The notes beneath the pieces are model-generated. The model saw nothing but the letters and a program-made list of their open reading frames with translations, did no database searches and had not been told where the DNA came from. DNA of 37,264 bases, from positions 1-37,264 of IMG/VR virus record IMGVR_UViG_2778261068_000007; one strand, written 5' to 3'. Of the stretch, positions 1-37,264 are shown one piece after another. Position 1 is the first letter of the stretch; every line of letters begins with the position of its first letter. The position numbers and the translations under genes were made by a program. This stretch comes from a virus (lineage: Duplodnaviria > Heunggongvirae > Uroviricota > Caudoviricetes).

Positions 1-62
1 AGTATCCGTTCAGCTGCAAAGTCATTATGTTGATTTTACGGTGACTATCCAGGAGTGAAAAG

Positions 63-83
63 AAAAAAGGCCGCGAAGCGGCC
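63..83 (-). terminator. Rho-independent terminator closing the leftward int-cargo transcript
   Basis: GGCCGC-gaa-GCGGCC stem at 69-83 preceded on the + strand by A6 (a T-run after the stem when read on the - strand); lies downstream of the 193..747 gene. Confidence 0.45.
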
Positions 84-192
84 ATAAACACAAACAAAAA
101 TCAATAAGTTAGATAATTATCAAAGACTTACAGACACACAAAAACACAGCCAACCACAACAAACAACAGAGATGTGGTCAATTTGTGGATCA

Positions 193-747
193 TCAGCCAA
201 CAAATTTAGCAACAAATACAGCAACCGCCGCCGTGAAAATGGTTGTGCATACTGGCACAATAATGCCACTCCAACGCCACTTCGTATTATCATCAACCTT
301 GTCAAACCGCCGATTCATCTCATCCATAATCTTGTCAAAGCGTTTATCCATCGCTTCGGTAAGCTCACCCTTCAGGCTGTTAATGTCTGATTTGAGCTGC
401 TCTTTCAGGTGAGCTGTATCAGATTTAAGCTCACCTTTCAGATTCGCAATATCGCATTTAAGATCACCTTTCAGATGAGCAATGTCTGCTTTGAGCTCAC
501 CTTTCACCTCACCAACATCAGCTTTGGTTGAGAGGTTTGTAGTGCGTTCAGTAAGCGTCGCAAGGTCGTTTCTTGTTAGCGATAAATCACCTTCGAGTCG
601 CTCAATTCGCCTTTCAAGTTTATCTGACATTCCGCCTCCACTACTGCCGCCATCGCCGCCATGATAAAGCACATCACGCTCAGAATGCGACATACTACCT
701 GCTGAATTACCGAAAAGGTTTCTTGCTGCATTACCCATTTTCACCAT
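193..747 (-). CDS. Coiled-coil protein with tandem 11-residue repeats and a C-terminal transmembrane anchor (possibly XhlA-like)
   Basis: 184-aa ORF: Gly-rich N-terminus, four 11-aa repeats (DIAHLKGDLKC / DIANLKGELKS / DTAHLKEQLKS / DINSLKGELTE), hydrophobic tail WRWSGIIVPVCTTIFTAAVAVFVAKFV. Start uncertain (ATGs at 747, 738, 693). XhlA resemblance is from memory only. Confidence 0.5.
   Translation of the reverse strand: MVKMGNAARNLFGNSAGSMSHSERDVLYHGGDGGSSGGGMSDKLERRIERLEGDLSLTRNDLATLTERTTNLSTKADVGEVKGELKADIAHLKGDLKCDIANLKGELKSDTAHLKEQLKSDINSLKGELTEAMDKRFDKIMDEMNRRFDKVDDNTKWRWSGIIVPVCTTIFTAAVAVFVAKFVG
355..519. repeat. Five 33-bp tandem direct repeats inside the 193..747 gene
   Basis: Units at 355-387, 388-420, 421-453, 454-486, 487-519 share the core aagctcacctttcag; they encode the 11-aa protein repeats on the - strand. 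Confidence 0.7.
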
Positions 748-1231
748 CCTGCGCTTTGTCTTTCTCCAACCACTTCAGCACCGCAGACGTACGGTAAAGG
801 CTCAGGTAACCACAATTCAGGCAATGCAGCGTGTAATAAGTTTTGCGCATATCAGGTATGCTCTTAACATCACCAAAAAAAGTATAAGATACATAATGCT
901 TTATGTTCTCTTTAATTAACTCACTCTGCTCCTCCAAGGGTAGATTGTTAAAATTTTCTGGTTTCTTATTTTTATCCCAACAAAGATCCATACTTTCAGG
1001 AACAGATAATCGCGACGATCCACATGAAGGGCAGACACTGGAGACCCCCTTCTCAGACAAGAAACGGAAGAAGATTTCTGGCGTAATCTCCATCAGCCGC
1101 TCTTTATGTTTTTTGACACGACTCATCGACTTCTTATTGATTTCATCAGCTTCTTCTTTGCATTTATCTTCTATATATTTTGATAGTAAATAGTCATATA
1201 ACTCTTTTTTTGTAGGTTTTTTTATTTCCAT
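731..1231 (-). CDS. Cys-rich putative zinc-ribbon protein, AT-rich cargo gene
   Basis: 166-aa ORF with CPSC ... CLNC pairs; markedly AT-rich versus the flanking phage genes; its start codon lies 2 nt after the int stop and it overlaps the next gene by 17 nt, implying co-transcription with int. Confidence 0.5.
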   Translation of the reverse strand: MEIKKPTKKELYDYLLSKYIEDKCKEEADEINKKSMSRVKKHKERLMEITPEIFFRFLSEKGVSSVCPSCGSSRLSVPESMDLCWDKNKKPENFNNLPLEEQSELIKENIKHYVSYTFFGDVKSIPDMRKTYYTLHCLNCGYLSLYRTSAVLKWLEKDKAQDGENG

Positions 1232-1233
1232 AG

Positions 1234-2211
1234 TTACATTCCTCCCAAGGGATTAAACCTCACCGCATCCTGCAAGTAATCCGGCGCAAGATGGGCATAA
1301 ATCATCGTTGTCTGAATCTTTGCGTGCCCCAGAATTTTCTGGAGCGTCAGAATATTGCCGCCGTTCATCATGAAATGACTGGCGAAGGTGTGGCGCAGCG
1401 CATGAACAGCCTGGCCGTCAGGAACATCAGGTGCGACCGTTTTGATGACATCGCGAACCAATGGATAATCCAGCGTCGGAAACACCAGTTTCCCGCCCCG
1501 TTTTTTGATCTTTTCAAACAAACCTTCGGAGATTGGGACAGTACGGTTTTTACTATTCTTTGTTTTTGAAAAAGTGATTCGACAATGCAGAACGCGACGC
1601 TGCTCCAACGCCACTACCTCGCCCCATCGCGCCCCGGTCGACAAAAGGATTTCGACAGCCAGCCGTTCATCGGGATTTTCAGCTAGTGCATCCAGCAACT
1701 GAATACACTCAGACTTACTCAGATATCCCATTTCGCGCTCGTTAACCTTCATTCCTTTCAGGCCTTGAACGGGATTATCGTTAAGAAAATGGCCGGATGA
1801 GATGAGCGCAGTAAACATCGCGCTTAACGCCCCAATCTCTCGATTAATGGTGCTGGGCTGTATCCCCTGCTCTATCCTGGACACACGTAGCTCGGTGAGC
1901 ATCGTTGTATTAAGTTTATGCACGCACGGGTCATCCATTGCCTCACTCAAGCGCAGCAATTTAAGGCGCGTGTTATGCCCTGACTTCATTAGCTGGCCGT
2001 GGTATTTCCACCACAAGTCAATAAGCACTGACAGCGGACGGCGATCAATGGAGTTTCCTTTCCACTCATTGTTATGCTGTTGCGCCAGCACCCACCGCTC
2101 ATATAAAACTGCATCCGATTTCGTTTTAAATTTTTTACGAATGCGTTTGCCTTTACGCCCCTCCGGGCGCATGTCAAGAAGATACCCTCCCGGAATTGAT
2201 TTTATGCTCAT
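1234..2211 (-). CDS. int: Tyrosine integrase, P2 Int-like
   Basis: C-terminal catalytic region HALRHTFASHFMMNGGNILTLQKILGHAKIQTTMIYAHL; N-terminus MSIKSIPGG..RPEGRKGKRIRKKF matches remembered P2 Int (MAIKKLDDG..RPTGRNGKRIRRKF). Start placed at the internal ATG (2209-2211), not the longer ORF start at 2361. Confidence 0.9.
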   Translation of the reverse strand: MSIKSIPGGYLLDMRPEGRKGKRIRKKFKTKSDAVLYERWVLAQQHNNEWKGNSIDRRPLSVLIDLWWKYHGQLMKSGHNTRLKLLRLSEAMDDPCVHKLNTTMLTELRVSRIEQGIQPSTINREIGALSAMFTALISSGHFLNDNPVQGLKGMKVNEREMGYLSKSECIQLLDALAENPDERLAVEILLSTGARWGEVVALEQRRVLHCRITFSKTKNSKNRTVPISEGLFEKIKKRGGKLVFPTLDYPLVRDVIKTVAPDVPDGQAVHALRHTFASHFMMNGGNILTLQKILGHAKIQTTMIYAHLAPDYLQDAVRFNPLGGM

Positions 2212-2260: not shown

Positions 2261-2569
2261 TTAGCCGGGCTGTGTGCCAGTCTTGCGGGGTTTTTGAGAA
2301 GGCGATGTGCTTTTTGGCCCATCAGGGGAGAGAGAGGGACTGATCTGCCCAGCAGCCTCATTCGTTTTTCCTGTCATAAGCCAATTCATGTACTTAAAAA
2401 AGCGAGGGTGATTAACAATCTTGATAAGCACTTCCCCCCCTATGTTTTCAATCCGCCCCGTTTCATAACGGCGCAAAGTGCCGATAGGCACATCAATCAG
2501 GCCGCAAAATTCTTCGCGCGTTAAATCCTCTGATTCACGAATCACTCTAATTTTTTCACCGATAAGCAT
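2261..2569 (-). CDS. Immunity repressor, P2 C-like HTH protein
   Basis: About 100 aa with HTH-like LTREEFCGLIDVPIGTLRRYETGR; sits between int and a divergent Cox-like gene as in P2; start placed at ATG 2567-2569 (the track ORF begins at an upstream GTG). Confidence 0.7.
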   Translation of the reverse strand: MLIGEKIRVIRESEDLTREEFCGLIDVPIGTLRRYETGRIENIGGEVLIKIVNHPRFFKYMNWLMTGKTNEAAGQISPSLSPDGPKSTSPSQKPRKTGTQPG

Positions 2570-2581
2570 TGACAGTGTTCC

Positions 2582-2627
2582 TATAAGTACACTAAGCTTG
2601 CGCACAAGGTGTACTTATAAGTACACC
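2582..2627. promoter_or_regulatory. Immunity-switch operator and divergent promoter region
   Basis: Perfect 20-bp palindrome ggtgtacttataagtacacc (2608-2627) plus an upstream copy of the half-site tataagtacac (2582-2592); TTGACA at 2569-2574; lies between the divergent repressor and Cox-like genes. Confidence 0.5.
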
Positions 2628-2665
2628 AAGTCACAAACAACCACAGATAGCGCAGGTTATCACAC

Positions 2666-4994: not shown

Positions 4995-7817
4995 GTGGCA
5001 ACGGAGTACATCAGAGACTGGCAACAACCACGCCATGCAGTCGGTCGCGAGGGAACGGGGGAGCCTGTCCGCCCCTCCCTTCTTTCTTCCTGGCTGGATG
5101 CCTACCGGGCAGAGAACGAGCGCCGCCAGGAAATGGCTGATGCGGCGTTCTCCGCTGCACCACTGGGCAATCTGATTAATAAAAGCCTGGACGCACAGGA
5201 AAAACAGGACAAAGCCATCACACTGGCAAGAGAAGCCAGAAAGCAGGCACGCGGTGCGGTGGATGAAGCCATGGCCTCGCTGCGTCTGCTGCCGTCCTAT
5301 CTGCGTGATCCGCTTATCCGCCATCTCTCTTTCCTGCGCAAAAAACAGGAATCTGGCCGCCAGAAAGGCAAAAATAGCTGGCAGGCTGAACGCTACGCGC
5401 GCGGAAACCTGCGCAAAATATTCGAACGTCTGGACTGCACCGACCGTCGCTGGCTGACTCCGGGTTATCGCTCCCTTGCCGGACGTGAACGTCTGGACGA
5501 TTTGCTGTACTTGCCACAGCTCAACAAGCACCAGATACAGACGCTGGCCGTCATGACAGCGGCAATGTTCAGCAGCACCTTCGAAAAACTCTGCGATGAC
5601 TTTGGCGCGACCGACGGCGAGCTGACCATGGATATAACGCTGAAGGCGTATCAGATGCTGGCCCGCATGGCGTTACATCTGCACACGGTGCCGCCGCATT
5701 ATGACGCACTGACAACAGACAAAGACCGGAAGAACGAACCGGACACGGAACTGCTGCCGGGTGCAATCCTCCGCCTGACCTGTGCGGACTGGTGGAAACG
5801 CAAATTGTGGCTTTTACGTTGCGAATGGAGAGAGGAACAACTCCGCGCTGCCTGTCTGGTTTCCAGAAAAACATCGCCCTATCTGAGTCAGGACGCATTA
5901 AGTGAATTTCGCGCACAGCGCGAGAAAACACGCGATTTCCTGAAAAGTTTCATGCTGGAAAATGAAGACGGGTTCACGATTGATCTCGAGACGGTGTATT
6001 ACGCGGGAGTAAGTAACCCGGTCCACCGTAAGGCAGAAATGATGGCCACCATGAAAGGGCTGGAACTTCTGGCCGAAGCCCGTGGCGACAAAGCGGTGTT
6101 TCTGACTGTCACCTGCCCGTCAAAATACCACGCAACAACGGAGAACGGTCATCCGAACCCCAAATGGAACGGGGCCACCATGCGCGACTCCAGCGATTAC
6201 CTGGTTAACACGTTTTTTGCGGCGGTCCGCAAAAAACTGAACCGCGACGGTCTGCGCTGGTATGGCATCCGCACGGTGGAGCCTCACCATGACGGCACCG
6301 TGCACTGGCATATGATGGTCTTTGCACACCCGGACGAGATTGAAACCATCGTGTCCCACGTCTGCGATATTGCCATTCAGGAAGACCGCCACGAGCTGGG
6401 CGATGACATAACTCCGCGTTTTAAGGCGGAGTACGTAGACGGCTCAAAAGGCACGCCAACCAGCTACATCGCCACCTACATCGGAAAGAACCTGGACAGC
6501 CGCGCCGTGGATGGCATCGACCCGAAAACGGGCAAGCCACGCGTTGACCACGAAACCGGAAAATCAATGGCAGAGAGCGTGGAACGCGCCATCGGCTGGG
6601 CGCGCCTTCACCGGGTCCGCCAGTTCCAGTTCTTTGGTATCCCTTCCCGTCAGGTGTGGCGTGAACTGCGTCGCCTTGCCAGCCAGATGGCACGCAACCC
6701 GGAAGGCCCGCAACGGCTGAAGGATGACGCAATGGACGCGGTTCTTGCTGCCGCTGATGCCGGATGTTTTGCCACCTACATAGAGAAACAGGGTGGCGTA
6801 CTTGTTCCACGCAAGGATTACCTGATTCGCACCGCCTACGACCTCGCAGAAGAGCTGAACGATTACGGCGAGCAAAGCGTACAGATTTACGGGATCTGGT
6901 CGCCACAAATCGGGGAATCTTCCCGCGTGTGCACGCACCCGGATAACTGGAAGCTGGTAAGACGTAAACCGGAAGCGGAAGACAGCGCCCGCGAAAATGG
7001 TTTTGACCTTCAGGGCGGCCCTGCCGCCCCTTGGACTCGTGGCAATAACTGTCCCCGTGTACAGGAAACGGACAACAACGGGACAGAACAGCCGGAAGAA
7101 CGGCCAGCACCGTGGCCGCAGCTTCCTGACGGCGTTGAAGTGAATGAATGGATGCGCTCACTGAAACGGCACGAACGCCGGGCGCTGATGCGTTCGCTGC
7201 GTGACAAACAGGCAAAAAACAGCAGTGATGAAATGCAGAGCTGGACACAGAGCCGCAAACAGCAGCGGCCTTTGCCTGATAACCACGAATTACTCGCTAA
7301 AGAATGGCGGGAGTCTGCCGAATCTCTCGGCCTGCATATCGGTGAACAACAGATGCTGCACCTGTTACGGGGCGGCAGTCTGTACGTTGACGGCAGCATC
7401 ATTGCGCCGCAGGGATATGAAATTGTACGTAAACCGGATACCCGACCGGACAGCCGAATCACGCGACTTTGGCAGCGCCTGAGTCGTAATCACAGCGTAA
7501 ACAGCACGGAAATCCGCCATAACCCGGTTTCCAGCTATCTGAAACAGCTCGGGGCATCAGACCCCGAAGCCGCCGCACGCCTGGCATCCACAATTCAGCA
7601 GGACCAGAACACCATGAAAACTCCCGTTACCGTGCTTTCTGACATGCTGCGCGCCATCCGTGACGCAGAGCACGCACAAAGATTCAATGAAACCACTGAA
7701 CGCGTCCGCCGCAAAGCAGATCTGTTGCAGGGTGGACTAACCAGTGAAAACAAAAAACAGACAAAAACGGGATTCACAAATCCCGTAAATGAGCAAAAAA
7801 CGCGCCGCGATATATGA
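4995..7817 (+). CDS. A: Rolling-circle replication initiator, P2 gpA-like
   Basis: 940-aa ORF with HWHMMVFAHPDE (HUH-type motif) and YHATTENGHPNPKWNG...TFFAAVRKKL...GLRWYGIRTVEPHHDGTVHWH; GTG start at 4995 with RBS ggag 8 nt upstream (alternative ATG at 5133); longer than remembered P2 A (about 760 aa). Confidence 0.9.
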   Translation: MATEYIRDWQQPRHAVGREGTGEPVRPSLLSSWLDAYRAENERRQEMADAAFSAAPLGNLINKSLDAQEKQDKAITLAREARKQARGAVDEAMASLRLLPSYLRDPLIRHLSFLRKKQESGRQKGKNSWQAERYARGNLRKIFERLDCTDRRWLTPGYRSLAGRERLDDLLYLPQLNKHQIQTLAVMTAAMFSSTFEKLCDDFGATDGELTMDITLKAYQMLARMALHLHTVPPHYDALTTDKDRKNEPDTELLPGAILRLTCADWWKRKLWLLRCEWREEQLRAACLVSRKTSPYLSQDALSEFRAQREKTRDFLKSFMLENEDGFTIDLETVYYAGVSNPVHRKAEMMATMKGLELLAEARGDKAVFLTVTCPSKYHATTENGHPNPKWNGATMRDSSDYLVNTFFAAVRKKLNRDGLRWYGIRTVEPHHDGTVHWHMMVFAHPDEIETIVSHVCDIAIQEDRHELGDDITPRFKAEYVDGSKGTPTSYIATYIGKNLDSRAVDGIDPKTGKPRVDHETGKSMAESVERAIGWARLHRVRQFQFFGIPSRQVWRELRRLASQMARNPEGPQRLKDDAMDAVLAAADAGCFATYIEKQGGVLVPRKDYLIRTAYDLAEELNDYGEQSVQIYGIWSPQIGESSRVCTHPDNWKLVRRKPEAEDSARENGFDLQGGPAAPWTRGNNCPRVQETDNNGTEQPEERPAPWPQLPDGVEVNEWMRSLKRHERRALMRSLRDKQAKNSSDEMQSWTQSRKQQRPLPDNHELLAKEWRESAESLGLHIGEQQMLHLLRGGSLYVDGSIIAPQGYEIVRKPDTRPDSRITRLWQRLSRNHSVNSTEIRHNPVSSYLKQLGASDPEAAARLASTIQQDQNTMKTPVTVLSDMLRAIRDAEHAQRFNETTERVRRKADLLQGGLTSENKKQTKTGFTNPVNEQKTRRDI

Positions 7818-33773: not shown

Positions 33774-35276
33774 ATGAACAAAAAGCTGTATTTATTCCCA
33801 GACTCAAACATTTTTCTACAATGCAAGGCCTTGACGCAGGTAAATTTTTCCGAGATTACTGCTTGTGATGAAGTATGTATCATTATTACAAGGCCCATTC
33901 AGCAAGAGATTGACCGCCAGAAAGGGCAAGGTAATTCCCGCCTATCCAAAAAAGCAAGGAAGGCTGCTAGCCTATTTAATCAAGTAGTTGATTCAACTGA
34001 CATGACTCTTGTTATTCGTGAACGCTCGCCGCGAGTTTTTCTTACCATGGATCTAAGCCTGAAACCATGTGAACAGTTATCTGAACAATTGGATTATCAG
34101 GAGGCCGACGATCGTTTTGTTGGTATTGCGGCAGGGTATTGCGCTGACGATCCAGATTCGGAGGTGGCAATCATTACCAATGATAGCGGTCCACGTTTTT
34201 CAGCAATAAAACATAATATAATCTGCTATAAAGTGCCTTCTTCATGGTTGCTTCCTGCTGAGCCAGATGAAAAGGATAAACAAATTAAATTGCTGGAAGC
34301 TAAGCTGAAGCAATTCACTCAGTCTATGCCCGATTTCAGCATTAAAGCAGCCGATGACGAGCAATTAAATATTGTACTTCCTTATTATACAGCTTTATCT
34401 GAATATGAAGTTGATAATTTGCTTTGTCAACTAACGGATGCATTCCCATTGGTTACAAACTTTGACAATGAACAAACTACCCCACAATCACTAGAAAAAA
34501 TCATCAAGTCATTTAGTCAACAGGAGTATTTCCCTGTATCAGCAGATGATATTTCTCTTTATAAAGAAAAACATTATCCACTTTGGAAAAAGCAGTGTGA
34601 AGAAATACTGAAAAACTGTCATACTCATATTAATCCGAAGGCAATAAAATACCCGCTGTCGTTTTTATTACAAAACACAGGTTATACTATCGCTGAACGT
34701 GCTGTGGTAACATTTACAGCAAAAGGAGATTTTCGTCTGTGTGGATTTAATTGGGAGATAATGGAAGAGCTGACTGAAAGCAAAAGGATTGACCTACCTT
34801 CAGCCCCTACCGCACCCAAAGGAAAATGGCGTAGTGTATGTGGCGTAACAGAAAGAATGCCTTACGCTTGGGGAGCTTTGGAAACACCGCTATCCAGTAT
34901 AATTTCAAAAGAAATTGGTCCTTTGTTATCTCTTACTCCAACAGAAAGGGATAAAAACGATTTTTATTATAAAGAAAAGAGAAATGTGCCAGTTCAAGTT
35001 GTATCGCTGGAATGCGAAGAGTGGCGTCATCAAGTCAAAGAAGAAATATTCCCGTTGTTCGTATATACAGCCAACAAACCAAAGAAAGTGAATGGTGCAA
35101 TTGAGGTGAGAGTTGATGCAAATAACCTTACCAATCCGGTCATTAAAACATTTAAATTAAAAATAACTATAGAAGAACATAGTGCATTTTCAACCATAAC
35201 AGAAATGGTGCAGACATACATTCAAGAGCAGAAGAAAAGACAGAAAAGTTCTATTAGCGCACAAATCAAAACATGA
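33774..35276 (+). CDS. PIN-domain protein with a roughly 350-aa uncharacterised C-terminal region
   Basis: N-terminal 150 aa carries the PIN acidic residues in order (LFPDSNIF, QQEID, EADDRF, IITNDSG); gene and flanks are AT-rich unlike the phage backbone; inserted between D and ogr. Confidence 0.6.
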   Translation: MNKKLYLFPDSNIFLQCKALTQVNFSEITACDEVCIIITRPIQQEIDRQKGQGNSRLSKKARKAASLFNQVVDSTDMTLVIRERSPRVFLTMDLSLKPCEQLSEQLDYQEADDRFVGIAAGYCADDPDSEVAIITNDSGPRFSAIKHNIICYKVPSSWLLPAEPDEKDKQIKLLEAKLKQFTQSMPDFSIKAADDEQLNIVLPYYTALSEYEVDNLLCQLTDAFPLVTNFDNEQTTPQSLEKIIKSFSQQEYFPVSADDISLYKEKHYPLWKKQCEEILKNCHTHINPKAIKYPLSFLLQNTGYTIAERAVVTFTAKGDFRLCGFNWEIMEELTESKRIDLPSAPTAPKGKWRSVCGVTERMPYAWGALETPLSSIISKEIGPLLSLTPTERDKNDFYYKEKRNVPVQVVSLECEEWRHQVKEEIFPLFVYTANKPKKVNGAIEVRVDANNLTNPVIKTFKLKITIEEHSAFSTITEMVQTYIQEQKKRQKSSISAQIKT

Positions 35277-36293: not shown

Positions 36294-36330
36294 CATATCG
36301 GCAGCAGTAACCACATAAGAGGTGCCGCAG

Positions 36331-36528
36331 ATGATGCAAAATATACGATGCAAAAATTGCTATAAATTACTTGCCCGCGCCTCATTTCACCACATTGAAA
36401 TAAAATGTCCGCGTTGCAAAACCCTTAACCAGGTAACGAGAGCCATCGAGCCCCCCACACACATGAGGAGCTATGACCGTGGGGATCGCAATCCAGCACA
36501 AAACAGCCCATACCCCGGAATACACTAA
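36331..36528 (+). CDS. com: Mu Com-like zinc-finger protein (candidate translational activator)
   Basis: MMQNIRCKNCYKLLARASFHHIEIKCPRCKTLNQV parallels remembered Mu Com (MKSIRCKNCNKLLFKADSFDHIEIRCPRCKRHIIM); RBS aagagg 8 nt upstream; 3' end overlaps the methyltransferase start by 56 nt. Confidence 0.7.
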   Translation: MMQNIRCKNCYKLLARASFHHIEIKCPRCKTLNQVTRAIEPPTHMRSYDRGDRNPAQNSPYPGIH

Positions 36529-37264
36529 GATTTACCAGACTGACAATGCCACGCTCTGCTGTGGGAATGCACTGGAAATATTGCCGCTGATTGAGCCAGA
36601 AAGCATTGATGCCTTAATCACTGATCCGCCTTACAGCTCAGGGGCAACACACAAGGCCGGACGCACCAACCAGGGCAGCCACGCAAAATATCTGAACGGC
36701 GAGAGCCTTCACCGCTTTGATGGATTTGCGGGTGAAAATATGGATGCCCGTTCGTGGGCTTACTGGACACAATTATGGATGGCACAGGCATACCGCGCAG
36801 TCAGGCCGGGCGGTTATGCCCTGGTGTTTACTGACTGGCGGCAACTGCCTGCTTTAACCGATGCGTTTCAGGCCAGCGGCTTTACATGGCGTGGAATCAT
36901 TGCGTGGAACAAAGGGAGGGGGTCACGAACACCCCATACCGGGTATTTCCGGCATCAGTGCGAATACATCGTCTGGGGCAGTAAAGGCCATTTAGGTAAA
37001 TCGCCTTCGGGACCGTTCGACGGCTGCATGACGTTCCCGGTTATCCCGTCAAAGAAACTGCATCCGACCGGAAAACCAGAAGAGTTAATGGCGGAGCTGG
37101 TCAGGACTGCGAATAGAGGCGGAACAGTCCTTGATCCTTTTATGGGGTCAGGGACAACGGGTATTGCAGCACTGAAAGCAGGACGCAAATTTATTGGTAT
37201 AGAAACCAGTGATCATTATTTTGATGTAGCAACACAACGGCTCAAAACGGCGATCGAACCATAA
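36473..37264 (+). CDS. DNA methyltransferase, N6-adenine or N4-cytosine, beta-class
   Basis: Catalytic motif ITDPPYSS precedes the AdoMet-binding motif DPFMGSGTT (beta-class order); start overlaps the end of the Com-like gene; alternative GTG start at 36479. Confidence 0.85.
   Translation: MTVGIAIQHKTAHTPEYTKIYQTDNATLCCGNALEILPLIEPESIDALITDPPYSSGATHKAGRTNQGSHAKYLNGESLHRFDGFAGENMDARSWAYWTQLWMAQAYRAVRPGGYALVFTDWRQLPALTDAFQASGFTWRGIIAWNKGRGSRTPHTGYFRHQCEYIVWGSKGHLGKSPSGPFDGCMTFPVIPSKKLHPTGKPEELMAELVRTANRGGTVLDPFMGSGTTGIAALKAGRKFIGIETSDHYFDVATQRLKTAIEP

What the first reader, a model, noticed from the sequence alone, without database searches (positions are those of the whole stretch)
193..1231. 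AT-rich two-gene cargo fused to the int transcript: zinc-ribbon protein plus repeat-rich membrane-anchored coiled-coil protein
Two genes lie immediately 3' of int on the same strand with no gap: a Cys-rich (CPSC...CLNC) 166-aa protein and a 184-aa protein with 11-residue tandem repeats and a C-terminal TM helix. Both are strongly AT-rich relative to the prophage backbone and are followed by a terminator. Genes co-transcribed with int and the repressor are expressed in lysogens, the usual place for superinfection exclusion or defence cargo. A membrane-targeted coiled-coil effector paired with a zinc-ribbon partner is suggestive but unassigned.
Basis: partly seen in the sequence, partly recalled or inferred. 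Interest (0 to 1): 0.6.

Follow-up and report, generated by a model that had tools for sequence, protein, structure and literature searches.

The report
Prophage zinc-ribbon plus membrane-anchor gene pair
Two small genes tucked between the integrase and the end of a P2-like prophage form a conserved, mobile pair (a zinc-binding cytoplasmic protein and a membrane-anchored coiled-coil protein) that always sits where prophages keep genes switched on in the dormant state, so it is probably a new phage-exclusion module, but nobody has tested it.

Summary
Two translationally coupled genes follow int on the minus strand. One encodes a 166-aa Cys4 zinc-ribbon protein (731..1231). The other encodes a 181/184-aa tail-anchored protein (193..738/747) with a disordered N-tail, a Gly/Asp linker, a DUF1640-type "STKAD" beta-layer motif, 11-residue repeats (33-bp DNA repeats) and a C-terminal TM helix. 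attL (about 59..83, a copy of the ihfA terminator) lies beyond both genes, so they are prophage cargo.

The pair is a mobile unit. In all 12 pairs examined the zinc-ribbon gene abuts a tail-anchored partner. It lies after int in P2-like prophages of E. coli, Salmonella and Klebsiella and in two P2-likes of unidentified host, beside ogr in Providencia, directly after a cI-type repressor in Rac/lambdoid prophages, and as stand-alone inserts in myovirus tail clusters. The zinc-ribbon gene is a hypervariable cassette between >93% identical flanks.

No Pfam, PADLOC, PDB or literature assignment exists. The closest relatives of the anchor are phage/plasmid DUF1640 proteins and Borrelia Bdr, all of unknown function.

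Best guess, at about 0.4: a lysogen-expressed exclusion or abortive-infection module acting at the inner membrane.

The parts
59..83 (-). attL core, a copy of the ihfA intrinsic terminator. Hairpin GGCCGCTTCGCGGCC at 83..69, T-run at 68..59. It ends the C-int-cargo operon and insulates btuC downstream.
   Evidence: Empty site in K-12 compared with the attL/attR junctions of E. coli O103:H2 12009. Terminator scan.
84..192 (-). Phage-side att arm and 3' untranslated region of the operon. A/C-rich, with short direct repeats (141..169).
   Evidence: Junction mapping. TRF rows. A role as Int arm sites is inference only.
193..747 (-). Tail-anchored DUF1640/Bdr-like coiled-coil protein: 184 aa from ATG 747, or 181 aa from ATG 738 (more likely).
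208..264 (-). C-terminal transmembrane helix (residues 162-180), followed by only 4 residues.
   Evidence: Hydropathy. AF2 helix 153-183. TM at the C-terminal end (at most 8 residues follow it) in 11 of 12 partner proteins; the lambdoid partner has 47 residues after the TM.
402..525 (-). 33-bp tandem repeats encoding 11-residue (hendecad) units. Copy number varies between homologues.
   Evidence: TRF. Homologue lengths 192/181/170/159/148 aa. One extra repeat in Salmonella s1.
517..534 (-). L-S-T-K-A-D beta-layer motif (residues 72-77) at the start of the stalk.
   Evidence: The motif is defined for DUF1640 in PMC4786415. AF2 helix break at 72-74. Present in 9 of 12 partners.
631..660 (-). Gly/Asp/Ser-rich flexible linker GGDGGSSGGG (residues 30-39). 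It separates a variable N-terminal tail from the coiled coil.
   Evidence: pLDDT <50 for residues 1-38.
731..1231 (-). 166-aa cytoplasmic Cys4 zinc-ribbon protein, the hypervariable cassette. Knuckles CPSC at 1022..1033 and CLNC at 812..823.
1234..2211 (-). P2-type tyrosine integrase. The ORF is open up to 2361; 325 aa as annotated in RefSeq relatives.
   Evidence: Pfam Int_N plus Phage_integrase. RefSeq annotation.
2261..2605 (-). [quoted passage not shown]
   Evidence: Pfam HTH_3. Annotation. Operon logic from PMC1904263.

Best explanation
What is shown:
- A self-contained two-gene accessory module (a 'moron') lies between int and attL of a P2-like prophage inserted in the ihfA terminator.
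- The first product is a soluble, usually acidic Cys4 zinc-ribbon protein.
- The second is an inner-membrane tail-anchored protein whose cytoplasmic part consists of a short variable tail, a Gly/Asp linker and a DUF1640-type beta-layer coiled coil of variable length.
- The two genes are translationally coupled and travel together between unrelated prophage backbones.

What is inferred:
- In this prophage the pair is transcribed from Pc with C and int, so it is made in the lysogen.
- The coiled coil is probably trimeric.
- The two proteins form a complex at the cytoplasmic face of the inner membrane, with the zinc-ribbon protein docked on the anchor.
- The complex acts against superinfecting phage. 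The fast-evolving zinc-ribbon subunit would be the specificity or sensor part. The anchor would be the membrane scaffold or effector, either blocking genome entry or establishment at the membrane or, once released, perturbing the membrane (abortive infection).
For: Location inside the prophage and coupling to int.

The pair is conserved as a unit in 12 of 12 contexts examined:
- After int in E. coli, Salmonella and Klebsiella P2-likes and in two further P2-likes at other att sites, host not identified.
- Convergent with ogr and away from int in Providencia.
- At a prophage edge.
- As a separate insert in tail or baseplate clusters. One of these has a roughly 140-bp AT-rich upstream spacer and its own terminator.
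- Directly downstream of a cI-type repressor in Rac/lambdoid prophages.

Shared features across the pairs: two CxxC motifs; TM at the C-terminal end (at most 8 residues follow it) in 11 of 12 partners; Gly/Asp run in 11 of 12 partners; acidic zinc proteins.

Mosaic signature: int is mostly 95-100% identical to another E. coli prophage at the same site (two 60-nt windows at 83-88%), and the anchor gene from window position ~660 to its 3' end is mostly 93-98% identical. The zinc gene plus the first roughly 25 codons of the anchor are only 52-83% identical. Several alleles with 52-63% amino-acid identity exist at this one locus.

The slot is variable. E2348/69 and O104:H4 prophages carry an unrelated ORF there. 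The literature reports that the slot holds about 3% of P2 defence systems.

[quoted passage not shown] That int follows C in that operon is from my own knowledge of P2.
Against: - No expression data.
- No physical evidence that the two proteins bind each other or that the anchor trimerises.
- In P2-likes the pair stays glued to int while other cargo comes and goes beyond it. That could mean a phage life-cycle role instead.
- Homologous DUF1640 anchors in Liberibacter phages, APSE-1, a Vibrio plasmid and Borrelia lack the zinc partner, and their function is unknown.
- A single C-terminal TM helix in a trimer is not an obvious pore.
Confidence: 0.4

Rival explanations
1. Lysogenic-conversion or host-physiology module unrelated to phage defence. 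The tail-anchored coiled coil would be an inner-membrane scaffold, as proposed for MCUR1/CCDC90B and suspected for Borrelia Bdr. It would recruit or sequester a host factor through the zinc-ribbon adaptor and change envelope or stress physiology of the lysogen.
For: The closest relatives of the anchor are DUF1640 proteins and Bdr, which are inner-membrane proteins of prophage plasmids produced during infection, with no defence role known. The zinc proteins are acidic, which suits protein-protein adaptors. Repeat-length variation of the stalk resembles Bdr.
Against: Hypervariability of the zinc gene within one species at one locus fits an arms race better than a host-directed function. There is no link to any virulence or metabolic locus in the 12 contexts, and neighbours are always phage genes.
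Confidence: 0.2
2. Phage life-cycle accessory acting in cis for the carrier phage, for example helping establishment of lysogeny, modulating Int or excision, or timing events at the membrane such as DNA entry or lysis.
For: In P2-likes at four different att sites the pair is always the gene pair immediately after int, with little or no intergenic gap (-23 to +47 nt). Additional cargo lies distal to it.
Against: About a third of sampled E. coli prophages with the same int and att lack the pair and carry an unrelated ORF. The pair also occurs without int: next to ogr, after cI, and inside tail operons with its own terminator. The window has a complete P2 late region, so no lysis function appears to be missing. 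This last point was not examined in detail.
Confidence: 0.15
3. Addiction or toxin-antitoxin-like cassette. The membrane protein would be toxic when free, and the upstream zinc-ribbon protein would neutralise it by binding its N-terminal tail. Its main effect would be to stabilise the prophage rather than to exclude other phages.
For: Two small overlapping genes with the soluble partner upstream and the membrane protein downstream. The sequences diverge together over the zinc gene and the N-tail of the anchor. Zinc-ribbon antitoxins exist (MqsA, from my own knowledge); Foldseek gave only a chance-level MqsA hit.
Against: No match to any TA family. N-tail type does not track the zinc allele strictly: the window and L009 share the tail type although their zinc proteins are only 54% identical. 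Many TA modules of this design also act as abortive-infection systems, so this partly overlaps the best explanation.
Confidence: 0.12
4. Not functional genes: chance ORFs or decaying remnants next to attL.
For: RefSeq annotations disagree on the start of the second gene (145 aa versus 181 aa) and name both products hypothetical.
Against: Both frames are conserved from 98% down to below 30% identity across genera, with invariant Cys and motif columns, in-frame indels, and only 2 synonymous changes against strain 12009.
Confidence: 0.02

Closest known systems
DUF1640 / CCDC90-like family (Pfam PF07798; MCUR1, CCDC90B and prokaryotic homologues)
   Same: C-terminal single TM anchor. Long coiled-coil stalk that begins with the [aliphatic]-A/S-T-K-x-D/E beta-layer motif (LSTKAD here). 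NCBI names homologues DUF1640/CCDC90. Phage and plasmid members (Liberibacter SC1 gp26, APSE-1 P47, Aliivibrio plasmid) share the same 'ELKxDIA' hendecads.
   Different: The window protein scores 26.5 bits, below Pfam's 33.5-bit cut-off. It has no folded head domain; residues 1-40 are disordered and Gly-rich. It has an obligatory zinc-ribbon partner that other DUF1640 genes examined lack. Trimerisation was not tested.
Borrelia Bdr (Borrelia direct repeat) proteins of cp32 prophage plasmids
   Same: Prophage-borne and inner-membrane associated (PMC10016077). tblastn similarity of 35-37%, E about 4e-6, over the repeat region. From my own knowledge: Bdr also has a C-terminal hydrophobic anchor and a central array of 11-residue repeats whose copy number varies.
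   Different: The similarity is confined to the repetitive coiled coil and may be partly compositional. Bdr N-terminal domains and the KID-type repeat consensus are not shared. No zinc-ribbon partner is known for Bdr. Bdr function is itself unknown.
Lambda RexA/RexB (cI-rexA-rexB operon)
   Same: A two-gene set, one soluble and one membrane protein, co-transcribed with the immunity repressor in the lysogen. In Rac/lambdoid prophages a relative of this pair sits directly after a cI-type repressor. Rex biology is from my own knowledge.
   Different: No homology. RexB is polytopic and RexA is not a zinc ribbon. The analogy is positional and architectural only.
P2 lysogenic-conversion and defence cargo (old, tin, fun/Z; hotspots of Rousset 2022 and the 2026 NAR survey)
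   Same: AT-rich accessory genes in a P2-like prophage, in a slot whose content differs between close relatives. The int-att interval is reported as a minor defence hotspot.
   Different: The pair matches none of the catalogued systems. It is tightly coupled to int rather than being a free-standing cassette.

Membership tests
DUF1640 / CCDC90-like (PF07798) | Pfam profile match above the gathering score | tested here: not met
   26.5 bits against a cut-off of 33.5, E 6.7e-6. Several close homologues carry precomputed PF07798 hits and NCBI names them DUF1640/CCDC90, so this is a borderline or divergent member.
DUF1640 / CCDC90-like (PF07798) | Beta-layer motif [aliphatic]-A-T-K-[polar]-[D/E] at the start of the C-terminal stalk | tested here: met
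   LSTKAD at residues 72-77. FATKSD, YATKAD and similar in 9 of 12 partners. AF2 helix break exactly at 72-74.
DUF1640 / CCDC90-like (PF07798) | Single C-terminal transmembrane anchor | tested here: met
   Residues 162-180, Kyte-Doolittle mean 2.43, 4 residues after it. At most 8 residues follow the TM in 11 of 12 partners; 47 follow it in the lambdoid partner.
DUF1640 / CCDC90-like (PF07798) | Homotrimeric coiled coil with N-terminal head domain (MCUR1/CCDC90B structures) | tested here: inconclusive
   Only weak matches to the prokaryotic DUF1640 structure 6h9l (E 0.15-0.2) and to beta-layer constructs 7o92 and 5apz. No head domain is predicted. Oligomeric state cannot be tested with these tools.
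Borrelia Bdr family | Central 11-residue repeat array of variable copy number plus C-terminal membrane anchor | tested here: met
   33-bp repeats, 3.8 copies. Homologue lengths differ by 11 aa. TM.
Borrelia Bdr family | Sequence homology across the conserved Bdr N-terminal domain and repeat consensus | tested here: not met
   tblastn matches cover only residues about 54-156, the coiled coil, at 35-37% identity and E 1e-5 to 4e-6. No Bdr Pfam family appears among the best 25 of 30 hits shown.
Known anti-phage defence systems (PADLOC-DB v2, including RexAB-like, Zorya, Lamassu and the PD-/PDC- candidates) | Profile match of either protein to a system component | tested here: not met
   Only weak coiled-coil matches to ZorA tail, LmuB and LeoBC (E 2e-5 or higher, 21 bits or less). 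Nothing for the zinc protein. The same holds for diverged pairs.
Zinc-ribbon superfamily (generic Cys4 ribbon) | Two CxxC knuckles on beta-hairpins, conserved | tested here: met
Prophage 'moron' (autonomous accessory transcription unit) | Own promoter and terminator, inserted between conserved phage genes, deviant composition | tested here: inconclusive
   In relatives L019 and L033 the pair lies inside tail operons, and in L019 it has an AT-rich spacer, a terminator and low GC. In this window it has low GC and a terminator but no promoter of its own; it rides on the int transcript. No transcription was measured.

The most novel reading that the evidence does not exclude
The pair defines an undescribed, horizontally mobile two-component prophage immunity system. 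A hypervariable zinc-ribbon sensor would be docked on a trimeric beta-layer coiled-coil protein tail-anchored in the inner membrane, and the complex would exclude or abort superinfecting phages at the cytoplasmic membrane face. If so, it would also give the first functional handle on bacterial and phage DUF1640/Bdr-type proteins. The role of Bdr in Borrelia prophage plasmids has been unknown for over 25 years.
Probability: 0.3. Interest if true: 0.75.

Novelty: new variant of a known kind. Interest (0 to 1): 0.58.

Why it matters
Defence and exclusion genes of temperate phages are a main source of new immune mechanisms, and the int-att interval of P2-like phages has only recently been recognised as a minor hotspot.

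This pair is absent from defence catalogues and from the literature searched. It recurs in lysogen-expressed positions of at least three unrelated prophage architectures, and it shows the allele turnover typical of conflict genes.

It is small (about 1 kb), easy to clone and easy to test against phage panels. A positive result would add a membrane-proximal system with unusual parts. Those parts are a beta-layer coiled coil whose length varies in 11-residue steps and a Cys4 ribbon subunit. Such a result would also suggest experiments for the enigmatic DUF1640/Bdr family. A negative result would point to a host-directed membrane scaffold, which would also be new for E. coli prophages.

Tried and rejected
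- Pfam, NCBIfam, PHROGs and PADLOC scans of both proteins gave only unknown-function PHROGs (phrog_4293, phrog_9415) and coiled-coil noise.
- PDB sequence searches with profiles gave only weak beta-layer and apolipoprotein-like hits.
- tblastn of the zinc protein against phage and plasmid collections found nothing.
- The genome-contig scan found only two species representatives, because the patterns used were narrow.
- I considered that attL might separate the genes from int. The junction mapping rejected this.
- I considered that the alternative two-gene cargo in APEC E956 and T28R was different cargo. It is a strongly diverged version of the same pair.
- I considered strict co-variation between the zinc allele and the anchor N-tail as evidence of binding. 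The window and L009 share the tail type despite 54% identical zinc proteins, so this is only suggestive.
- dN/dS could not be estimated. Close alleles differ by 2 nt and distant ones are saturated.
- I considered nucleic-acid binding by the ribbon unlikely, because most family members are acidic.
- Rfam found only a sub-threshold host sRNA hit.
- Literature searches for DUF1640/CCDC90 with phage defence, for the RefSeq accessions, and for tail-anchored plus zinc-ribbon exclusion found nothing relevant.

Full report
**1. What is in the window**

The window is a P2-like prophage.
- It has a replication endonuclease (4995..7817), a capsid/terminase block, tail sheath and tube, gpD and an ogr-type zinc finger.
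- The left 1.3 kb is 98.8% identical to a prophage of E. coli O103:H2 12009. There RefSeq annotates [quoted passage not shown] next to btuC.
- The other end of that prophage abuts ihfA.

**2. Where the prophage ends**

I compared the empty K-12 ihfA-btuC spacer with both junctions of strain 12009 and with the window.
- The att core is AAAGAAAAAAGGCCGC(A/G)(G/A)AGCGGCC, which is the ihfA intrinsic terminator.
- In the window the core lies at about 59..83 and phage DNA starts at 84.
- Both genes of the finding (193..1231) therefore lie inside the prophage, between attL and int.
The phage's attP copy ends the leftward operon and insulates btuC. attR regenerates the ihfA terminator.

**3. Gene anatomy**

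- The int stop codon is at 1236..1234. The ATG of the 166-aa gene is at 1231, with GGAGG upstream.
- The 166-aa gene stops at 733..731. The next gene starts at ATG 747 or, more likely, 738. At 738 an AGGA lies 8 nt upstream, and homologues start MGNAA.
- No promoter-like site occurs on the minus strand between the C repressor gene and the att core.
- C-int-zinc-anchor therefore reads as one operon. [quoted passage not shown] That int follows C in that operon is from my own knowledge.
- GC content is 0.379 (zinc gene), 0.452 (anchor gene), 0.503 (int) and 0.527 (prophage).

**4. The zinc protein**

- Four cysteines are invariant in 15 homologues: CPSC at 67-70 and CLNC at 137-140.
- AlphaFold2 gives a confident model (pLDDT 83). 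It has a long N-terminal helix, a short helix, then a beta-rich domain carrying both knuckles and a C-terminal helix.
- Pfam, NCBIfam and PADLOC give nothing. PHROGs gives phrog_4293, of unknown function.
- A profile search of 1.84 billion representatives finds only 90 clusters with E up to 1e-3, of 57-180 aa (most 100-180 aa). They share the core [quoted passage not shown].
- Most members are acidic, pI 4.6-6.8. That argues for protein binding rather than nucleic-acid binding.

**5. The anchor protein**

- Residues 1-40 are predicted disordered. They contain a variable tail, a conserved "RDV" and a GGDGGSSGGG linker.
- Helix 41-71 (LERRIERLEGD...) is interrupted at S73-T74-K75. Helix 75-150 carries the hendecads VKGELKADIAH / LKGDLKCDIAN / LKGELKSDTAH / LKEQLKSDINS / LKGELTEAMDK. 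Helix 153-183 contains the TM segment 162-180.
- The DNA shows 33-bp repeats at 402..525.
- Homologues differ in length by multiples of 11 residues: 192, 181, 170, 159 and 148 aa. A Salmonella copy has exactly one extra 33-bp unit.
- LSTKAD fits the beta-layer motif that Lupas and colleagues found "prominently at the beginning of the C-terminal stalk" of DUF1640 membrane proteins (PMC4786415).
- The Pfam CCDC90-like match is below threshold, 26.5 against 33.5 bits.
- tblastn finds DUF1640 proteins of Liberibacter phages SC1/SC2, APSE-1 P47 and an Aliivibrio plasmid. These share "ATKAD" plus "ELKQDIA" hendecads and a C-terminal TM. It also finds Borrelia Bdr proteins at 35-37% identity.
- Bdr proteins are inner-membrane proteins of cp32 prophage plasmids whose function "has yet to be discovered" (PMC10016077).
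- RefSeq's 145-aa annotation starts at Met40. The region upstream of it is conserved at protein level in Salmonella, Providencia and Klebsiella, so the long form is the real product.

**6. The pair is a unit**

Every zinc-family member whose context I examined has an abutting or overlapping downstream gene for a tail-anchored protein of this design. The one exception is a weak outlier, P0117, which lies next to type I-F Csy genes.

| Context | Source |
|---|---|
| After int, same att site | Salmonella |
| After int, same att site, diverged zinc allele | E. coli L009 |
| After int, very diverged 110/120-aa plus 145-aa pair | APEC E956, T28R |
| After int | Klebsiella |
| After int, at other att sites | two further P2-likes |
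| Convergent with ogr, not next to int | Providencia stuartii |
| At a prophage edge | HP1/P2-like element |
| Inside tail or baseplate clusters | two other myoviruses |
| Directly downstream of a cI-type repressor | Rac/lambdoid prophages |

- One of the tail-cluster copies has a roughly 140-bp AT-rich upstream spacer, its own terminator and GC 0.39 against 0.51 for the locus.
- In the lambdoid case the anchor carries a (PA)n extension after the TM. This is consistent with an N-in/C-out topology.
- Feature table for all 12 pairs: two CxxC motifs in 12 of 12; TM at the C-terminal end (at most 8 residues after it) in 11 of 12, the lambdoid partner being the exception; Gly/Asp run at residues 18-31 in 11 of 12.

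**7. Variability**

- Against another E. coli prophage at the same site, int is mostly 95-100% identical (two windows at 83-88%). The anchor gene from window position ~660 to its 3' end is mostly 93-98% identical. The zinc gene plus the first roughly 25 codons of the anchor are 52-83% identical.
- 302 of 5,426 complete E. coli genomes carry this int/att type, and 23 carry the window's allele pair.
- In an evenly spaced sample of 45 hits, about 20 have some version of the pair. About 15 have a single unrelated AT-rich 131-aa ORF instead, for example E2348/69 and O104:H4. One example per class was verified and the proportions are extrapolated.
- The interval is therefore a variable cargo slot. 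The 2026 NAR survey of P2-like prophages reports that the int-att interval holds 3% of P2 defence systems (PMC13586616).

**8. Interpretation**

Shown:
- The anatomy, the position inside the prophage and the coupling to int.
- Mobility as a pair.
- Recurrent placement in positions that are transcribed with the repressor or autonomously.
- Allele turnover of the zinc gene.

Inferred:
- Expression in the lysogen.
- Trimerisation of the anchor.
- Docking of the zinc protein on the anchor.
- An anti-phage role.

I rate exclusion or abortive infection at the inner membrane as the most likely function, at about 0.4. The main rivals are a host-directed membrane scaffold (0.2), a phage life-cycle accessory tied to int (0.15) and an addiction cassette (0.12). 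No paper in the library describes the pair.

**9. Verdict**

The function remains open. The pair is an undescribed family combination built from a known but unexplained anchor family (DUF1640/Bdr) and a new zinc-ribbon family. It is worth a simple wet-lab test.

Noticed in passing
window 33774..35276 (+): A 500-aa ORF with an N-terminal PIN_4 domain (E 6e-8) sits between gpD and ogr. E. coli O103:H2 12009 has a GmrSD restriction endonuclease in the same slot, so this is a second variable cargo slot. There is no PADLOC match.
   Followed up: partly
window 36322..37264 (+): After ogr there is a small CxxC...CxxC ORF (36322..36528) and a DNA methyltransferase-like ORF (36473..) that runs off the window end. 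Strain 12009 has hok/gef here. attR is not inside the window.
   Followed up: no
window 59..83; L002 (K-12) 1208..1240: The phage integrates into the intrinsic terminator of ihfA, which encodes a subunit of IHF. IHF is the host factor P2-type integrases need (from my own knowledge). Both junctions keep a functional-looking terminator.
   Followed up: partly
window 1..124 (-): Sub-threshold Rfam hit to the enterobacterial sRNA STnc540 (23 bits against a gathering score of 38) spanning the btuC upstream region, the att core and the first phage bases. It is probably a host-locus feature disrupted by the insertion.
   Followed up: no
window 141..169 and 198..225: Short A/C-rich direct repeats (periods 10 and 12) between the att core and the end of the anchor gene. 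They could be Int arm-type sites, but this is pure speculation.
   Followed up: no
L013 1607..2002 (E. coli E2348/69; also O104:H4 2011C-3493): Prophages with the same int and att carry a single unrelated AT-rich (GC 0.39) 131-aa ORF in place of the pair. It has no Pfam or PADLOC match.
   Followed up: partly
L027 versus L028 (5377..5931); L019 versus L020 (5381..5749): Other low-complexity repeats in partner proteins also vary in copy number between near-identical loci: (PA)n after the TM helix in the lambdoid version and (GGD)n in the linker of a myovirus version.
   Followed up: no
window 2400..2640 versus L009: The C repressor/operator region is only 42-57% identical between prophages whose int genes are mostly 95-100% identical. 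They are therefore heteroimmune relatives, with mosaic boundaries at both ends of int.
   Followed up: no
L025 6056..7840; L026 5886..7075: In other P2-likes, additional unknown cargo lies between the pair and the att site: a 594-aa ORF, or 160- and 210-aa ORFs, one of which has a weak PDC-S64 hit.
   Followed up: partly
L031 2537..2980: A weak zinc-family relative (P0117) lies next to type I-F csy1-4 genes. It is followed by a 55-aa two-TM ORF rather than a tail-anchored coiled coil.
   Followed up: no
window 1..58: The host flank upstream of btuC is only about 75% identical to E. coli K-12 and 12009, and it does not match the Salmonella s1 flank. The window's host is therefore probably another enterobacterial lineage. 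The same module (96-99% identical) occurs in both E. coli and Salmonella.
   Followed up: partly
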